The notes below the pieces were generated by a model that saw only the letters and a list, made by a program, of their open reading frames with translations, searched no databases and was not told the DNA's origin. From positions 1 to 53,951 of the IMG/VR virus record IMGVR_UViG_3300048672_001423: a DNA stretch of 53,951 nucleotides; one strand, given 5' to 3'. Positions 2,333-48,570 of this stretch are shown here, piece after piece; within the stretch, counting starts at the first letter, position 1; every line of letters starts with the position of its first letter. The DNA is from a virus (lineage: Duplodnaviria; Caudoviricetes). The position numbers and the translations under genes were made by a program.

Positions 2333-2808
2333 AACAGGTACAATTTAGACAACAAACTGATTTATTAGAAAACCCAATTAATACTGAGGTTTTCGGTGTG
2401 TATGCAATGGATAACCAAACGGAAGCAATTAGCGTTTTTTCTCTTACTGATGAAGAAGCAAAACAAGTAGCTGAAACAAAAGTAATTTACGTTAAACAAA
2501 ACGTAACAAATGGTTTTCGATTGATAGAATGTTATGCTTTTATGAAAAATGCAGGATTGCCAATTCTTGGCGTAAATTGGATTGCATTGATGGACTCAGA
2601 AATGACAGAAAACTTCATGCACGATTTACAGATAAGATGGCCAAATGAAAACATACCAAATACTGTTTTGTCAAACAGTTATGATTCGTTTAAGGACTTT
2701 GTTTTAATCGGTTTGGGGCTTACTCAACAAGTTTTTGATGAAACATGGCGAGTAAAATCAAGCAAATGGATTGAAATTTCAGAAATGCACAAAAACGTTA
2801 AGATGTGA
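2329..2808 (+). CDS. hypothetical protein
   Basis: ORF with overlapping start/stop on both sides. Confidence 0.65.
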   Translation: MKQVQFRQQTDLLENPINTEVFGVYAMDNQTEAISVFSLTDEEAKQVAETKVIYVKQNVTNGFRLIECYAFMKNAGLPILGVNWIALMDSEMTENFMHDLQIRWPNENIPNTVLSNSYDSFKDFVLIGLGLTQQVFDETWRVKSSKWIEISEMHKNVKM

Positions 2809-3170
2809 AAGAAAAAACTTGCTCAATTTGCGGACAAAAACGCTCGCTGTGGCGTTCTAATCCTCCAACTTGTAAGAACTGCGTACAAAGAAAAAAAATC
2901 GCTCAAACAAGCGAAAAACGCAAAATAACTTTAAAGTCTTATAGCAATCAAAGAAAGGATTTTTTACAAAAAAATGCCGTATGCAAATTAAAGCTTTCAA
3001 GATGTACCAGTAAAGCAACTGTGATACATCACACAAAAGGAAAATCTAGTGAAGAGCTTTATTTGGATGAAAAATTTTGGATGGCATCTTGTTGGAATTG
3101 TAATCTTGATGTAGAAACTTATGAGCAAGCATATGAAGAAGGTTTAAAAATTCACCGTAACCAAATTTAG
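2805..3170 (+). CDS. Zn-finger/HNH-like protein
   Basis: CxxC pairs, C...C...IHHxKG...CxxC pattern. Confidence 0.55.
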   Translation: MKEKTCSICGQKRSLWRSNPPTCKNCVQRKKIAQTSEKRKITLKSYSNQRKDFLQKNAVCKLKLSRCTSKATVIHHTKGKSSEELYLDEKFWMASCWNCNLDVETYEQAYEEGLKIHRNQI

Positions 3171-3173
3171 AAA

Positions 3174-3413
3174 ATGATTAAAGAACCTATTTATGTATTT
3201 TATCACTTTGTTTGTAATAATAAGAAATGTAAAAATTCAATAAATGATTTTAATAGTGAAGTTATTACAAATCGAATTGAATTTAAGTCAGAAGAAGAAA
3301 AATTAAAATTCAAACACAGTGGTATGAAATGCGATTGTTGTAAAAATGAAATGAGTAGTTCTTCTAGTAATGGCTCTGTATTTGGAATAAACTTAAATAA
3401 TCAAGAATTATGA
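3174..3413 (+). CDS. small Zn-ribbon hypothetical protein
   Basis: CxxxxC and CxxC motifs. Confidence 0.55.
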   Translation: MIKEPIYVFYHFVCNNKKCKNSINDFNSEVITNRIEFKSEEEKLKFKHSGMKCDCCKNEMSSSSSNGSVFGINLNNQEL

Positions 3414-3525
3414 TTCAATTATTAGATTTTTACTTATTCGTTTCCGTATCTCTCTCATTAATGTATTTGAGTGAAGGTGAAACGACTTTAGTCTCATTAA
3501 AAAACGGTTTTTTACTGATAATAAA

Positions 3526-3837
3526 ATGACACAATGCAATATACCTCTACCTTATATTGAAGAAATGTTTTGTTCTGATGGTTACAACATCAGAAACTCA
3601 AAAGATAGCATTTCAATTACAGGTGATAAAAGAGTATTTATCAATGATAAGTATTTTGGATTTGTTGAAAGGCAAATAGGAAGTAATTTATTAGTAGTAT
3701 GTGAGTCTTACAATAAACTATTAAATTGTTTAGCTTACTTACTAACGATAAAAGATAATAAAGTATCAATGAAAAATGTTGGCTATTGGACTGGCAATTA
3801 CGAAGACATTAAAGATTTAATCGAACTAAATTTATGA
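3526..3837 (+). CDS. hypothetical protein
   Basis: ORF in operon. Confidence 0.6.
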   Translation: MTQCNIPLPYIEEMFCSDGYNIRNSKDSISITGDKRVFINDKYFGFVERQIGSNLLVVCESYNKLLNCLAYLLTIKDNKVSMKNVGYWTGNYEDIKDLIELNL

Positions 3838-44817: not shown

Positions 44818-45354
44818 TTATTTAATTTCAACTCCGTAAGAAATCATTATATCACCATAAGTTGGTTTTGATTTTAAGTCAATACCTCTGTACATTAAAG
44901 CAGATTCAATTTGATGCTGATTTAAGTCTTTTAGCTTTGGGTACTCTAAGTAAACATTTGTCTTTGGGCTGAAAGCAAAAGCATATCCATCGTGACAAGT
45001 TACCGTAAACTCTTCTTCATCATGCCCATTCAATTCCACATTAGTTTCAACACAAATTGGCATCTTTACATTGAACACCAAATTGTCTTCGTCACTAGAA
45101 TCGTCCAAGCTATATTTTCCGTTTTCTATGGCAGAATTATAACTTATCTGTACGTAATCATACTCTTTGTTTTTGGTCAACTTTCTAGTTTTACCGTTAA
45201 AAGATATTGAAGGCCTAGTGATGATTAACAAATCACCTTCTAATTTTACTATTACTTCATCACTTAAAGAGAGTGAACCAGAGCCATAAAGTCTAATTGT
45301 TGATGATGTGCCTTTTGATGTTACACACAATACGATGCCAGAGATTTTTTTCAT
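44818..45354 (-). CDS. hypothetical protein
   Basis: ORF. Confidence 0.6.
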   Translation of the reverse strand: MKKISGIVLCVTSKGTSSTIRLYGSGSLSLSDEVIVKLEGDLLIITRPSISFNGKTRKLTKNKEYDYVQISYNSAIENGKYSLDDSSDEDNLVFNVKMPICVETNVELNGHDEEEFTVTCHDGYAFAFSPKTNVYLEYPKLKDLNQHQIESALMYRGIDLKSKPTYGDIMISYGVEIK

Positions 45355-45392
45355 TAATTTTTTTTATTTAAAATTTTTCAATACTTTTGCAA

Positions 45393-45464
45393 TGCGGATT
45401 AGAGCAGCGGTAGCTCGCTAGGCTCATAACCTAGAGGTCGATAGTTCAAATCTATCATCCGCAA
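45393..45464 (+). tRNA. tRNA-Met(CAT), initiator-like
   Basis: Acceptor TGCGGAT/ATCCGCA, D stem GAGC/GCTC, anticodon arm CTAGG-CTCATAA-CCTAG, GTTCAAATC T-loop; TACTTTTG -7 box upstream. Confidence 0.9.
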
Positions 45465-45556
45465 CTAAAAAAATGAAAAAACAAAATCTAAATATCAGTA
45501 GTCTTTTACCGCAGAATTTATCTGAGGATTTTTGACTATGATTTTGTTTATCATTT

Positions 45557-45592
45557 AAAAAGTCTTCTTATTAGCTTAGGAAGACTTTTTTT
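45557..45592. terminator. hairpin/terminator between tRNAs
   Basis: AAAAAGTCTTC...GAAGACTTTTT. Confidence 0.55.
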
Positions 45593-45596
45593 ATAT

Positions 45597-45672
45597 CTGA
45601 TATTGGAGAAGTTAGGCCGTTTTCGTCTGCTTTGGGAGCAGAAGACCGTAGGTTCAAATCCTACATATCAGA
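45597..45672 (+). tRNA. tRNA-Pro(TGG)
   Basis: Acceptor CTGATAT/ATATCAG, anticodon arm TCTGC-TTTGGGA-GCAGA, T arm GTAGG-TTCAAAT-CCTAC. Confidence 0.85.
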
Positions 45673-45683
45673 CTTATTTTTTT

Positions 45684-45769
45684 AGAGAGTAAACATTGAT
45701 GGTGATATGGGCCGACTGCTAATCGGTTCGACGATTAAAACCGTTTCGGTTCGATTCCGATGCTCTCTG
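45684..45769 (+). tRNA. tRNA-Ser(GCT)
   Basis: Acceptor AGAGAGT/GCTCTCT, anticodon arm GCCGA-CTGCTAA-TCGGT, long variable arm, G discriminator. Confidence 0.85.
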
Positions 45770-45770
45770 C

Positions 45771-46115
45771 TTAATTTTCTAAGTCTTCAATGAGTTTTTC
45801 AAGCCGCTTAATTTCATCTTTGTAAGTTTCTATATTTTCCTCCAAGTCAGAAATTGTTTTCTCCATTTCTTCTACCTTGTCACTTAGCTCTTCTTCCAAT
45901 TCTTTTTTCCTATTCAATAAATCGTTACCCCAATTTCTTAATAAAGAATTTGCTTCACGTATTTGTTCCATATTCTCAAGAATATCCTTTAAATCTTGTT
46001 CATTAGAACCATCCACGTTTTCAATGATGTTATAAATTGCATTTACATCTCGAATAACTGCATTAATTGTTGGACAAGTTTGTCCTACTGGTTCTTTTTC
46101 AATGTCGTATCCCAT
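45771..46115 (-). CDS. coiled-coil hypothetical protein
   Basis: TCPxI...E.IRxANxxLRxWG motif followed by an acidic coiled coil. Confidence 0.7.
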   Translation of the reverse strand: MGYDIEKEPVGQTCPTINAVIRDVNAIYNIIENVDGSNEQDLKDILENMEQIREANSLLRNWGNDLLNRKKELEEELSDKVEEMEKTISDLEENIETYKDEIKRLEKLIEDLEN

Positions 46116-46130
46116 TTTTTTTGAAATTTA

Positions 46131-46610
46131 ACTTAGTGACAGTTTTTTTTCTGCCACTAAGTATTGAACTAAAAATAACTATACTAGGCTTTGCTTTACG
46201 CCACACTACTTTACTTAAAAAAACTATATTCGACATTACTTCACTTTACTATACAAGACAGCAAAATACCAAACTTAACTATACATAACTTAACAATACA
46301 ATACGGCAAATAACTAAACCACACTTTACTTCACATTACTAAACAGGACTTCAAAAAACAAAACTAAACCATACATAGCTTCACATAACCTCACACAAAA
46401 ATACTTTACTAAACGTTACAGTACGGAACAGTACTTAACCATACTATACCTCACAAAAAAATACTTCACAAGACATAACAATACTTCACATCACTTCACG
46501 ACAAAAAACTTAACTATGCCGCACTTTGCTCTACTTGACTGTACTTCACTATAAAAAACATTGCCTTACATCACTCTACTGAACATAACGGTACATTGAA
46601 ATACTAAAAA
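46131..46610 (-). ncRNA. putative guide-RNA array transcript (NGY-NN pentamers, UUU punctuation, 3' hairpin) of the adjacent RAMP gene
   Basis: Starts at the stop codon of 46611..47192. The terminal stem pairs fully (one G-U) only as minus-strand RNA. Transcription is inferred, not shown. Confidence 0.65.
46166..46610. repeat. 89 consecutive in-phase pentamers, + strand NNRCN (77 of 89), with NNAAA punctuation
   Basis: Read directly: taact atact aggct ttgct ttacg ccaca ctact ttact taaaa aaact ...; no indel breaks the phase over 445 bp. Confidence 0.95.
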
Positions 46611-47192
46611 CTACTTAATTGGTGTGATTTTCTCTAATTCAAATCTACCAAATTCGCCAGTATGCTCTGGACGATAAGAACCTACACCTAAGTATCTTCC
46701 TGCATACTTAATGATGTCGTTTACCGTTTCTTGAGTCAATTTGTTCTTATCATCATCATCAAGAATTAAAGTAAATTCACAACGCCATTCATTCCATTTA
46801 GGTCTGTGAACCATAATACGTGCCTTGACGTTTTTGTTTACTGCTGAGCGAGAATCTATTTCATCAAACTTTCTAAATTTGATTCTTTCTTCTAAAATCC
46901 TCCATTGACCAGCTACGATGTTTTTTAATGAACGTGAGCTGTTACCGACTTTAGCTTTTACAAAAGAACCACCATTACAGAACGCTTGCTTGAAATGTGA
47001 TGATGGAATATAAAACAATCCGTTTTCATCAATGTATGAGTGAAAATGAGCTAGCTTTTCCTCTGGTGTCGCTGCATCAGAGTTTTCGATAATACGGCCT
47101 CTCGACTTTTCCCATTCTGCAAGCTTCTTGTCGTCCATGCGATGTTGCATATATGGCGTTACTCCAACGATTTGTAATTTGAATTTTCTCAT
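46611..47192 (-). CDS. stand-alone RAMP/Cas7-like RNA-binding protein
   Basis: N-terminal beta strand IVGVTPY, YIPSSHFK (IPgssxK-like), RP...W...F.L, and C-terminal Gly-rich loop YAGRYLGVGSYRP...GEFGRF. Confidence 0.75.
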   Translation of the reverse strand: MRKFKLQIVGVTPYMQHRMDDKKLAEWEKSRGRIIENSDAATPEEKLAHFHSYIDENGLFYIPSSHFKQAFCNGGSFVKAKVGNSSRSLKNIVAGQWRILEERIKFRKFDEIDSRSAVNKNVKARIMVHRPKWNEWRCEFTLILDDDDKNKLTQETVNDIIKYAGRYLGVGSYRPEHTGEFGRFELEKITPIK

Positions 47193-47221
47193 TTTTCTTT
47201 ACTGGGGGTTTATGATTGATT

Positions 47222-48570
47222 TTAAAACAATGTGATTATTTTTTCTACTTCCTGCCCTTTTTTAGCAGTCTTTTTTCTTTCATGAAGAAACTCGTTGATT
47301 TTTAACGATACAAACTCTGGTGTTAGAGAATATTTAAAAAGTCCTTCGTGTTTGACGAATCTGTCTTCTATTTTTTGTCGAATCTGGTCTTTCGGTCTTG
47401 TCGTATCAAAAAATACATTCAGTCCGCAAATACTCGTCAAGTGAACTGTACCATTTCCCAGGTCTTCAAAAGTTAAAAACGGAACGTATTTCTCTGCTCT
47501 TTTAACATAAAAAAACGTTTCTTTTTCTTCAACTTCAACCTCGTATAAACTATCATCTTTGATTTGATAGTTAGGCAAAACAATCTTTTTACCTGTTTTA
47601 GTTTTAAGAAGAGAAACTAATTGCCCTTCTTTTTTTTGTGAATAGAAAAATTTCAAAATCATTTTTACAATTAATTTTAAGGTCTATACTTTTGCATTAC
47701 TTCGTATGGGAATTTAGTAACTCTTTGAATCACATTTATGCTACTAATTTTGTCGCCATATTTAGCTATAAATTTTTCTGAAAGAATTGACGAACCTACA
47801 TAAAAACTAAAATCATCTGCGTATCCTTTTACAGCTACCCATCTAATCTTTCCACCTTGCCTATTCATAAATATTCCATCTGGCTAATTTTCTTCAACGC
47901 CAGAACATATAATTTCACCTTTAAGGATTTTATTAAACTTTTCTTCTGTCATTTTCTTGATAAAGCTAAGTATTTGTCTGTGTTTTTGGGTGTCTCGCAT
48001 TTTTCAAAGTCATTACAAATATTACATGAAATAACACCTCTTGACTTTCTACATTTACTACCAGTTTTTGCTGAATACAAAAACTTACGATAAGCTGTAC
48101 GTTGTTTTGGAGTCATACCCTCCATTCTTTTAAGCTCAAACTCTGTCATGTTACAAATATTTGACGTATGAGTAAAATTTCAAATCGCCATTTGGCAACT
48201 TTTCAGATACATACTCGGCTATTGGGATATTTTTGACATAAATCAAGAAATTGTTTGATAGTTGTATTGGCAATACCATAATATTTTCCTTATCGCAATA
48301 ATTTTTTACAATATGGTTAAGAAATATCTTTTTATTAAAATCCATTTCATTACGCATCTCCACAAAGTGTTTAACGTAAGTTTCAACCTTTTTTTGCGAT
48401 TCATTTAAAATGATGCAATCAATACATTTCTGTAAACTACCATTAAATGGATTACATACATCAATTAAGTTGCCAATGTATTTTTCTTTAATTTCTTCAT
48501 CAGTAATCGGCTCTACTGGAAAAGAACAGTCATAAACGTGGTTTTCAAAAATCAATCTTACAATTTTCAT
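47222..48570 (-). CDS. four small hypothetical genes (47222-47662, 47677-47868, 47949-48149, 48151-48570)
   Basis: Consecutive minus-strand ORFs downstream of promoter element B, upstream of the RAMP gene. Confidence 0.6.

What the first reader, a model, noticed from the sequence alone, without database searches (positions are those of the whole stretch)
46171..46610. Higher-order punctuation divides the array into about nine 45-nt units
Seen: NNAAA pentamers (UUU-NN in the RNA) replace the NGY triplet at 46171, 46216, 46261, 46306, 46351, 46396, 46456, 46501, 46551 and 46606. The spacings are 45,45,45,45,45,60,45,50,55, all multiples of 5. A degenerate ttgaa at 46596 would make the last unit 45. 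The typical unit is one UUU-NN plus eight NGY-NN, carrying nine variable dinucleotides, and no two units are the same. Inference: the U-tracts are processing sites or filament boundaries, giving individual ~45-nt guides analogous to crRNAs.
Basis: partly seen in the sequence, partly recalled or inferred. Interest (0 to 1): 0.85.

Follow-up and report, generated by a model that had tools for sequence, protein, structure and literature searches.

The report
Guide units in a phage VIPR array
The 450-base five-letter repeat tract is the guide-RNA array of a phage VIPR system, a CRISPR-like system first described in 2026, and short runs of U divide it into nine guide-sized units of about 45 bases.

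Summary
All ten NNAAA pentamers sit where stated, with spacings of 45,45,45,45,45,60,45,50,55 nt. That regularity is far beyond chance (p about 2.5e-5).

The tract is a VIPR guide array (Viral Interference Programmable Repeat, bioRxiv 2026). The 193-aa gene directly upstream on the same strand (46611-47192, minus) is a Vipr homolog: its profile hits PDB 36pp "SUSP1 Vipr protein" at E=5e-16. The RNA reads (W-G-U-N-N)n, a non-canonical form of the published GGY/NN repeat.

The units behave as modules:
- 90 of 94 related loci carry such arrays beside vipr.
- Their tracts end in the same AGUAW-UUY motif.
- Unit lengths peak at 9-10 pentamers.
- A near-identical strain in another metagenome lacks exactly 90 nt, which is two units.
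- Two related phages differ by one whole 50-nt unit inserted at a U-run.

Not shown: RNA ends, cleavage, or targets. Five target scans gave chance-level hits.

This is a new member of a known kind. Its distinctive feature is a tail-less array in which one G-less pentamer is the only delimiter. The preprint's "staggered arrays" figure, which I could not see, may already cover this.

The parts
46611..47192 (-). vipr gene: 193-aa RAMP (Cas7-like) protein, the predicted filament-forming partner of the array
   Evidence: A profile of 47 homologs hits PDB 36pp_D 'SUSP1 Vipr protein' at E=5.1e-16 over residues 1-186. The AF2 model has pLDDT 84.2. The best Foldseek matches are Csm3/Cmr4/type VII Cas7 chains, E about 1e-6. 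There is no Pfam hit; phrog_4652 is of unknown function.
46596..46615 (-). Array start: two tandem boundary motifs with no guide between them (AGUAG-UUUUU, AGUAU-UUCAA). The first overlaps the vipr stop codon.
   Evidence: Pentamer read-out in RNA sense. Relatives start their arrays the same way, directly after the vipr stop (L136, L141, L142).
46551..46595 (-). Unit 1 (RNA 5'-most): 8 WGY-NN repeats + UUUAU, 45 nt
46501..46550 (-). Unit 2: 9 repeats + UUUGU, 50 nt
46456..46500 (-). Unit 3: 8 repeats + UUUUU, 45 nt
46396..46455 (-). Unit 4: 11 repeats + UUUUG, 60 nt
46351..46395 (-). Unit 5: 8 repeats + UUUGA, 45 nt
46306..46350 (-). Unit 6: 8 repeats + UUUGC, 45 nt. It shares the NN run AA-GA-AA at the same positions with unit 8.
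   Evidence: one side of the 90-nt deletion joint seen in run X2
46261..46305 (-). Unit 7: 8 repeats + UUUGC, 45 nt
46216..46260 (-). Unit 8: 7 repeats + one degenerate pentamer (AAUAU) + UUUUA, 45 nt
   Evidence: other side of the 90-nt deletion joint in run X2
46171..46215 (-). Unit 9 (RNA 3'-most): 8 repeats + UUUUU, 45 nt
46131..46162 (-). 12-bp hairpin with an A8 loop just after the last unit, 15 nt before the ATG of the next gene (46115). Possible end, cap or stabiliser of the array transcript.
   Evidence: MFE -17.4 kcal/mol against -7.0 +/- 2.1 for 200 shuffles, z = -5.0

Best explanation
Bases 46171-46615 on the minus strand are the vrRNA array of a phage VIPR system. Its Vipr protein is encoded directly upstream (46611-47192, minus).

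By analogy with the solved SUSP1 system, one Vipr protomer binds each W-G-U-N-N pentamer. It holds the fixed trinucleotide and presents the two variable bases for gapped pairing with DNA (two paired bases, then one skipped). That step is inferred by homology.

Every 9 pentamers or so, a pentamer has lost its G (U-U-Y-N-N) and is preceded by an A/U-only repeat (AGUAW). My reading is that Vipr cannot seat on this G-less pentamer. The filament therefore stops there and a short U-rich single-stranded gap is exposed. That divides one precursor transcript into nine separate guide units, seven of 45 nt, one of 50 and one of 60. Each unit carries 7-10 freely variable dinucleotides.

The precursor probably runs from vipr to the hairpin at 46131-46162. 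Whether a host single-strand endoribonuclease then cuts the gap (I favour this, about 55:30) or the units stay joined as beads on a string is not shown.

This array has no structured 3' tail, ribozyme or promoter between units. The U-run pentamer is the whole delimiter.
For: Identity
- The Vipr homolog hits PDB 36pp at E=5.1e-16, and the model has a RAMP/Cas7 fold.
- The published mechanism is one protomer per pentamer, with the GGY bases flipped out and the NN bases paired (section 4 of 10.64898/2026.04.26.720927).
- Residues that hold G2 and Y3 in SUSP1 are kept: R138 corresponds to invariant R130, W178 to Y/F173, and R179 to invariant R174.
- D177, which reads G1 in SUSP1, corresponds to an invariant Ser172. 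This fits G1 having become A/U here.
- Non-canonical WGT/NN arrays beside Vipr-like folds are reported in 10.64898/2026.10.21.760802 (passages).

Linkage
- 90 of 94 related loci have WGY-NN arrays beside vipr on the coding strand. The 94 reduce to 79 after removing duplicates.
- None of 12 neighbouring window genes is conserved there.

Units
- The spacing is non-random.
- Among 279 in-phase non-repeat pentamers inside 188 arrays, TTT (82) and TTC (22) dominate.
- Intervals between successive in-phase UUY pentamers fall at 8-12 pentamers in 61 of 85 cases. Ten of the 85 are the window's own.
- 117 of 265 perfect tracts are followed by a T run within 8 nt, against 13% of random positions. 118 of 265 end in AGTTT, AGTAA or AGTAT.
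- Single-pentamer UU linkers occur in 9 of 12 loci with 60% or more Vipr identity, against 11 of 67 more distant loci.

Modularity
- A contig in run X2, from a different study, joins 46235 to 46326. It skips exactly 90 nt, which is two units.
- L206 carries one extra 50-nt unit relative to L128, inserted at a UUUUU boundary. The same alignment has a 5-nt indel, and a 60-nt unit is identical in both.
- That unit, with its boundaries, is the only block shared between different loci.
- Flanks that are 92-96% identical can hold unalignable arrays (L166 against L170).

No tail
- The array RNA folds no better than shuffled sequence (z = -0.36).

Discontinuity
- 26 of 122 short linkers in relatives break the 5-nt phase.
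Against: - There is no direct evidence on RNA ends or on protein binding for this clade.
- In the window itself every boundary keeps the 5-nt phase. A filament could in principle read straight through.
- The 90-nt deletion in X2 lies between similar stretches inside units 6 and 8, with 13 nt of shared letters. It is not at the U-runs. It shows register-preserving recombination between units rather than excision at boundaries. It also rests on one 398-nt contig of depth 3.9.
- TTA is as frequent as TTC among non-repeat pentamers (22 each). The conserved Y in UUY is therefore partly my own definition in an AT-rich genome.
- Guides with only 7-10 free dinucleotides are short.
- Five of nine units scanned under the published pairing rule found nothing beyond chance. 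The rule is thus untested for this clade.
- No conserved vap accessory gene was found.
Confidence: 0.7

Rival explanations
1. One continuous filament. The whole 450-nt tract is a single very long vrRNA. The UUU-NN pentamers are only tolerated degenerate repeats or flexible hinges, not guide boundaries.
For: All boundaries in the window keep the 5-nt phase. Other degenerate pentamers, such as AAUAU and GGCAA-type GC variants, occur inside units without any obvious effect.
Against: - The regular spacing and the conserved AGUAW-UUY motif in relatives would be unexplained.
- Relatives have phase-breaking U-rich linkers (26 of 122) and spacers of 26-120 nt between tracts of similar length.
- Published vrRNAs have 9-16 repeats. 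A 92-protomer filament would need a gapped target of about 276 bp.
- Unit-sized indels occur.
Confidence: 0.1
2. The U-runs are transcription signals. On this view each U-run is a stop or pause site, perhaps helped by Vipr loading on the nascent RNA in place of a hairpin. Alternatively each unit has its own start. Either way the result is nested or separately made vrRNAs rather than cleavage products.
For: - In more distant relatives the tracts end in a similar GUAUAG(A/U)UUUU motif. They are separated by 30-55-nt conserved spacers that could hold promoters (L122 and L130; L166 and L170).
- The preprint mentions 'staggered arrays with overlapping vrRNAs' (legend of Fig. S18).
Against: - There is no hairpin before the U-runs, and the array is unstructured (z = -0.36).
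- Sigma-70-like promoter matches in 45300-48200 are at chance level (11 found against 10.2 +/- 3.0 in shuffles).
- 45 nt leaves no room for a promoter per unit.
- That scan does not cover Bacteroidota-type promoters.
Confidence: 0.12
3. A DNA-level element: phased A-tracts or iterons for a DNA-binding protein (origin, centromere, packaging site), or a decayed pentanucleotide microsatellite with no RNA role.
For: The + strand has A-runs every 45 bp and a strict 5-bp period. tRNA genes and replication genes are nearby.
Against: - The G-U is always on the coding strand of the adjacent vipr gene in 90 of 94 loci.
- The fixed positions are exactly those of the published vrRNA repeat, while the other positions vary freely.
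- The partner protein is an RNA-binding RAMP.
- A decaying microsatellite would not keep G-U while randomising three positions.
Confidence: 0.03

Closest known systems
Type II VIPR of Escherichia phage SUSP1 / Pseudomonas fulva prophage (bioRxiv 10.64898/2026.04.26.720920 and .720927)
   Same: - A small RAMP protein (about 200 aa) sits next to pentanucleotide tandem repeats on the same strand.
- The repeat has a fixed trinucleotide plus a hypervariable NN.
- There are several guides per locus and about 9-16 repeats per guide.
- The system is phage-encoded.
- The G2- and Y3-contacting residues are conserved.
   Different: - The repeat is W-G-U rather than G-G-Y, and the Asp that reads G1 is replaced by an invariant Ser.
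- There is no invariable 3' tail or pseudoknot of about 40 nt. Units abut, separated by one U-U-Y-N-N pentamer.
- Units are about 45 nt, not about 100 nt.
- No conserved vap gene was found.
- Expression, DNA binding and the one-base-skip rule are untested here.
'Staggered vrRNA arrays' (Fig. S18 legend of 10.64898/2026.04.26.720920) and alternative YNNNG repeats (Methods of the same preprint)
   Same: [quoted passage not shown] YNNNG corresponds to the window's U-N-N-W-G. This may be the same architecture.
   Different: The legend speaks of '1 nt overlapping positions'. I could not see the figure, the type assignment or the data files, because supplements are closed. By the preprint's own wording this architecture was not among those confirmed by small-RNA sequencing. 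No U-run delimiter is mentioned in the text I searched: 'U-rich' and 'uridine' gave 0 occurrences.
Non-canonical VIPR arrays (WGT/NN and others) found by entropy periodicity (bioRxiv 10.64898/2026.10.21.760802)
   Same: The WGT/NN motif lies next to a Vipr-like fold (passages).
   Different: In the passages I read, that survey describes the 5-mer motif and the protein fold, not a higher-order unit structure.
Class 1 CRISPR arrays and Cas7 backbone filaments
   Same: A RAMP fold protein (Foldseek: Csm3, Cmr4, type VII Cas7) coats a guide with a fixed periodicity. The array holds many different guides that turn over fast between related genomes.
   Different: - The period is 5 nt, with 2 of every 5 bases pairing, rather than 6 nt with 5 of 6 pairing.
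- There are no long direct repeats, no Cas6 hairpin, and no cas1/cas2 or other cas genes nearby.
- The delimiter is a 5-nt U-run.

Membership tests
VIPR (Vipr protein + vrRNA) | A Vipr RAMP protein is encoded at the locus | tested here: met
   Profile A1 hits PDB 36pp_D 'SUSP1 Vipr protein' at E=5.1e-16, residues 1-186 against 1-190. The AF2 model (pLDDT 84.2) matches Cas7-family RAMPs in Foldseek.
VIPR (Vipr protein + vrRNA) | Tandem pentanucleotide repeats, with a fixed trinucleotide and variable NN, flank vipr on its coding strand | tested here: met
   All 75 repeat pentamers in nine units have G at position 2, and 69 T plus 6 C at position 3. Positions 4 and 5 are variable. 90 of 94 related loci show the same arrangement.
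VIPR (Vipr protein + vrRNA) | Canonical GGY trinucleotide | tested here: not met
   Position 1 is A in 37, T in 24, G in 8 and C in 6 of 75 repeats, so the motif is WGU. The preprint allows 'a related consensus' including YNNNG, and WGT/NN is reported elsewhere. This therefore does not exclude membership.
VIPR (Vipr protein + vrRNA) | 9-16 repeats per vrRNA | tested here: met
   Units have 8, 9, 8, 11, 8, 8, 8, 7(+1 degenerate) and 8 repeats, plus one UUY pentamer each. This is at the low end of the published range.
VIPR (Vipr protein + vrRNA) | Invariable structured 3' tail (about 40 nt, a pseudoknot in SUSP1) after each repeat tract | tested here: not met
   Units abut with a single 5-nt U-run between them. 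The array RNA is no more structured than shuffles (z = -0.36). Only one hairpin follows the whole array.
VIPR (Vipr protein + vrRNA) | An accessory vap gene beside vipr | tested here: inconclusive
   None of 12 window neighbour ORFs has a tblastn match (E<=1e-5) in any of the 94 related loci. A non-homologous or distant vap cannot be excluded.
VIPR (Vipr protein + vrRNA) | Residues that contact the fixed bases are conserved | tested here: met
   From the HMM alignment, the invariant columns and the residue roles: SUSP1 H17 = H17, R138 = R130, W178 = Y/F173 and R179 = R174. D177 (the G1 contact) corresponds to invariant S172.
VIPR (Vipr protein + vrRNA) | vrRNAs are expressed and bound by Vipr | not testable with these tools
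   This needs small-RNA sequencing or a pull-down.
VIPR (Vipr protein + vrRNA) | NN code matches natural DNA targets with a one-base skip | tested here: inconclusive
   Exact scans of IMG/VR with five units gave 13, 0, 62, 46 and 38 hits, with no extension beyond the seed. There was no skip-1 enrichment in 1.65 Mb of held loci.
CRISPR-Cas array | Direct repeats of 25-40 nt alternating with spacers, with cas genes nearby | tested here: not met
   Tandem Repeats Finder reports only short periods of 10-15. There are no cas families in the neighbours. The period is 5 nt.

The most novel reading that the evidence does not exclude
This clade may represent a tail-less VIPR subtype in which the guide is defined by the filament itself. 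A single pentamer that lacks the anchoring G (UUY-NN, after an AGUAW repeat) would be enough to end one Vipr filament and begin the next. Nine guides could then be packed head to tail in 450 nt with no structured handle, ribozyme, dedicated nuclease site or promoter between them, and with no vap partner. That would be a new, minimal route of guide biogenesis for RAMP-based systems. It would also give a natural template for multiplexed VIPR guides.
Probability: 0.4. Interest if true: 0.6.

Novelty: new member of a known kind. Interest (0 to 1): 0.45.

Why it matters
VIPR was described only in 2026, and how its guides are made is known for very few systems. The published cases are tailed guides of about 100 nt, ribozyme-separated arrays and single guides.

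This window and about 20 related loci show a much more compact layout. The only punctuation is a G-less U-run pentamer, and natural variants gain and lose whole units.

If confirmed, it would say three things:
- What minimally defines a vrRNA end.
- That filament assembly may itself set guide length.
- How to string many short guides together for multiplexed use.

It also extends VIPR to uncultured freshwater phages. These are probably phages of Bacteroidota, judging from three related loci in Bacteroidota genome bins. That is a weak inference, since the contigs may be binned phage DNA.

Tried and rejected
Early ideas, held before the protein was identified: a TRAP-like ring-protein sponge, a T4-type primase ACNNN motif, DNA iterons or bent DNA, and a decayed microsatellite. 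I dropped them once one search identified Vipr.

Database checks
- Rfam at gathering score found only tRNAs.
- blastn of 45300-47700 against 50,697 phage records matched only the tRNA genes.

Target search
- I used the published NN-x rule as exact gapped patterns in IMG/VR.
- Unit 2 (8 NN) gave 13 hits, and 0 of 13 matched the next NN.
- Unit 4 (10 NN) gave 0 hits.
- Unit 9 gave 62 hits. About half are one homologous gut-phage sequence, which explains the 25 of 62 matches two positions upstream. Only 3 of 62 matched the next NN.
- Unit 6 gave 46 hits and unit 8 gave 38, with flanking matches at background level.
- Units 1, 3, 5 and 7 were not scanned.
- Offline, I searched 6-NN seeds from 188 arrays against 1.65 Mb of held loci plus the window. 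Skip 0, 1 and 2 gave 1894, 2405 and 2259 diagonals, with top scores of 19, 18 and 17. The one-base skip showed no enrichment.
- Exact matching is much stricter than the >=80% NN criterion of the preprint, so this result is inconclusive.

Expression
- No RNA holder was listed by the look-up of sequencing runs.
- All four laid runs are DNA contigs and cannot show RNA ends.
- Parts of the stretch without cover in X2-X4 are not interpreted.

Promoters
- Sigma-70-like matches are at chance level.
- I looked by eye for a Bacteroidota-type TAnnTTTG element at the boundaries and found it at only one, so I dropped the idea. No call was made for this.
- The idea that GU|AUU at the boundary fits the RNase E preference RN|WUU is recalled from the literature (Chao et al. 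2017). I did not read that paper here or test the idea.

Closed or unseen sources
- Supplementary figures and data of the preprints were not available. These include Fig. S16-S18, data S4 and the type assignments. They may already show this clade and this array layout.

Papers, and what I saw of each
- 10.64898/2026.04.26.720920: outline, sections 4, 10 and 20, and found passages including the legends of Figs S9-S22.
- 10.64898/2026.04.26.720927: outline and part 1 of section 4.
- 10.64898/2026.10.15.759431: search listing, start of the abstract and found passages.
- 10.64898/2026.10.21.760802: found passages only.

Searches behind 'not in print'
- 'Vipr'+'phage', 'SUSP1' and 'vrRNA'.
- An in-paper search for 'U-rich', 'uridine', 'boundar' and 'staggered'.
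Full report
WHAT IS THERE

Between two minus-strand genes lies a tract of about 460 nt with a strict 5-nt period. It is the only such region in the window. Period-5 power is 8-10 here, against a median of 0.66 and 3.6 at the next-best place.

With the first and last marks fixed, random placement of the other eight gave six or more equal gaps at a frequency of 2.5e-5. It never gave as small a spread in 200,000 trials.

In RNA sense (minus strand) the tract reads as follows:
- AGUAG-UUUUU, overlapping the stop codon of the upstream gene.
- AGUAU-UUCAA.
- Nine units of 9,10,9,12,9,9,9,9,9 pentamers. Each is a run of W-G-U-N-N repeats closed by one U-U-U-N-N pentamer, and all nine differ.

The 'degenerate ttgaa' at 46596 is UUCAA. 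UUC-NN is a regular delimiter in relatives, so it is a true boundary. The repeat just before each U-run always has an A/U-only NN (TT, AT or TA; 9 of 9). A 12-bp hairpin follows the last unit (46131-46162; z = -5.0). The array RNA itself is no more structured than shuffled sequence (z = -0.36).

WHAT IT IS

The 193-aa gene immediately upstream on the same strand (46611-47192) has no Pfam family and only a PHROG of unknown function. It has 669 homologs in metagenomes, all unnamed.

A profile of 47 of these homologs matches one solved structure, PDB 36pp 'SUSP1 Vipr protein', at E=5.1e-16 over nearly the full length. The AlphaFold model (pLDDT 84.2) matches the Cas7-family RAMPs Csm3, Cmr4 and type VII Cas7 in a PDB copy that ends before the VIPR entries.

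Vipr is the protein of the Viral Interference Programmable Repeat systems described in 2026 preprints. In those systems:
- One Vipr protomer binds each pentamer of a vrRNA made of 9-16 GGY/NN repeats.
- The GGY bases are flipped into the protein.
- The NN bases pair with double-stranded DNA, skipping every third target base.
- The result is transcriptional silencing of rival phages and satellites.

The window's repeat is W-G-U/N-N. It fits the 'YNNNG' alternative mentioned in the preprint's Methods and the 'WGT/NN' class found by a later survey.

The residue map is consistent with this. The SUSP1 contacts to G2 and Y3 are conserved: R138, W178 and R179 correspond to R130, Y/F173 and R174. The Asp that reads G1 (D177) is an invariant Ser in this family, which fits G1 having become A/U. 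This last step is inference from an alignment.

LINKAGE

I fetched 14 IMG/VR and 80 metagenome loci that encode relatives (43-71% identity). They reduce to 79 after removing duplicate contigs.
- 90 of the 94 have W-G-Y-N-N arrays directly downstream and/or upstream of vipr, always with G-U on the coding strand.
- The four without an array are L135, L137, L138 and L188. The first three are one lineage of orphan vipr. L188 is a short contig.
- None of 12 neighbouring window genes recurs in any of the 94 loci. The mobile module is therefore vipr plus array, and I found no conserved vap.
- Of 120 viral contigs picked up only by a 9x AC pattern, 32 hold more distant Vipr homologs.
- Three relatives lie in Bacteroidota genome bins and also have arrays.

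ARE THE UNITS REAL MODULES?

(a) The delimiter recurs.
- Inside 188 distinct arrays (4179 pentamers), 279 in-phase pentamers lack the G-Y. TTT (82) and TTC (22) are the main classes, though TTA, AAT and TAT have 22 each.
- The preceding pentamer is A-G-U-A-U-like.
- Intervals between successive UUY pentamers fall at 8-12 pentamers in 61 of 85 cases, ten of which are the window's own.

(b) Tract ends.
- In 79 non-duplicate loci, 117 of 265 perfect tracts are followed within 8 nt by a T-run, against 13% of random positions.
- 118 of the 265 end in AGTTT, AGTAA or AGTAT.
- Tract lengths peak at 7-12.

(c) The closest relatives (62-71% identity) have the same abutting layout. L140 reads 9,9,9,9 and L141 reads 9,11,10,12,9. 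Single-pentamer UU linkers occur in 9 of 12 loci with 60% or more identity, against 11 of 67 below that. More distant relatives end each tract with a similar GUAUAG(A/U)UUUU motif but add 26-120-nt spacers (L122, L130, L166). The U-run therefore appears homologous to the 3' end of separately spaced vrRNAs.

(d) Phase. Of 122 short linkers between tracts, 96 are multiples of 5 (74 are exactly 5) and 26 break the phase. The phase-breaking linkers listed are mostly U-rich. Register need not be kept across a boundary, which argues against one continuous filament.

(e) Natural variation.
- A 398-nt contig in run X2, from a different study than the likely source run, matches 46042-46235 and then 46326-46526. 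It skips exactly 90 nt, which is two units. The joint lies in 13 shared letters inside units 8 and 6, where both carry the same three NN. It is therefore unit-register recombination, not excision at the U-runs, and it rests on one low-depth contig.
- L128 and L206 have vipr genes 89% identical. They share one identical 60-nt unit, differ by one complete 50-nt unit inserted at a UUUUU boundary, and differ by a single 5-nt pentamer elsewhere.
- That shared unit with its boundaries is the only block of 6 or more pentamers common to two different loci.
- L166 and L170 have flanks 92-96% identical but unalignable arrays. Turnover resembles that of CRISPR arrays.

HOW IT MOST LIKELY WORKS

By homology, Vipr coats each W-G-U-N-N run at one protomer per pentamer. 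I infer that the G-less UUY pentamer cannot seat a protomer, because G2 is the base clamped by R130 and Y/F173. The filament would then end there, exposing a short U-rich gap.

This would define nine guides with 7-10 free dinucleotides each. Under the published rule, if it holds here, each would specify a gapped target of roughly 24-33 bp.

Whether the gap is then cut by a host endoribonuclease, or the units remain on one RNA, is open. I favour cutting. The array is probably co-transcribed with vipr and ends at the hairpin.

Nothing here shows expression, binding or targets. My five exact target scans and the offline seed search were at chance level.

COMPARISON AND NOVELTY

This is a VIPR locus, so the kind is known. 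It differs from the characterised type II systems in four ways:
- The W-G-U motif.
- No structured 3' tail.
- Abutting units of about 45 nt.
- No conserved vap.

[quoted passage not shown] That is the one architecture it lists that was not confirmed by small-RNA sequencing. This may be the same layout, but I could not see the figure. A U-run delimiter is not mentioned in the text I could search.

I therefore file it as a new member of a known kind, with a possibly undescribed delimiter rule.

Noticed in passing
window 45393-45770 (+): Three tRNA genes (Met-CAT, Pro-TGG, Ser-GCT) lie on the opposite strand and converge on the VIPR module. ARAGORN finds all three, while Rfam at gathering score reports only Met and Pro.
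   Followed up: no
L135, L137, L138 (vipr at about 2738-3576): One lineage of Vipr homologs, 64% identical to the window's, has no 5-nt array within the held flanks (period-5 power 3 or less). These are orphan vipr genes, or their arrays lie elsewhere.
   Followed up: partly
L122 4550-5500; L130 4550-5000: More distant relatives separate their repeat tracts with conserved spacers of about 35-55 nt that begin with the same GUAUAGUUCUUUU-type end motif. The layout looks like CRISPR repeat-spacer, and the spacers could hold a tail and/or a promoter.
   Followed up: partly
window 45771-46115 (-) and 47222-47662 (-): The two genes flanking the module are a 114-aa coiled-coil protein with weak Gp157/Gam-like hits and a 146-aa protein with no hits. 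Neither is conserved beside vipr in any of the 94 related loci, so neither looks like a vap partner.
   Followed up: partly
window 46115 and 47192 start regions: Both vipr and the downstream gene have A-rich leaders with no Shine-Dalgarno-like motif (read). Three related loci sit in Bacteroidota genome bins. Together these hint at a Bacteroidota host.
   Followed up: partly
32 of them hold distant Vipr homologs (22-41% identity), so G-U-phased arrays extend well beyond this clade. Others are giant-virus contigs with simple repeats.
   Followed up: partly
window units at 46216-46260 and 46306-46350: Two non-adjacent units carry the same three variable dinucleotides (AA-GA-AA) at the same unit positions. 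This may reflect unit duplication or related targets. It is the site of the 90-nt deletion variant.
   Followed up: partly
L228-L289: About half of the 62 exact hits to the unit-9 pattern are one conserved sequence in many large gut-phage contigs. It is a single chance event multiplied by homology, not a target.
   Followed up: yes
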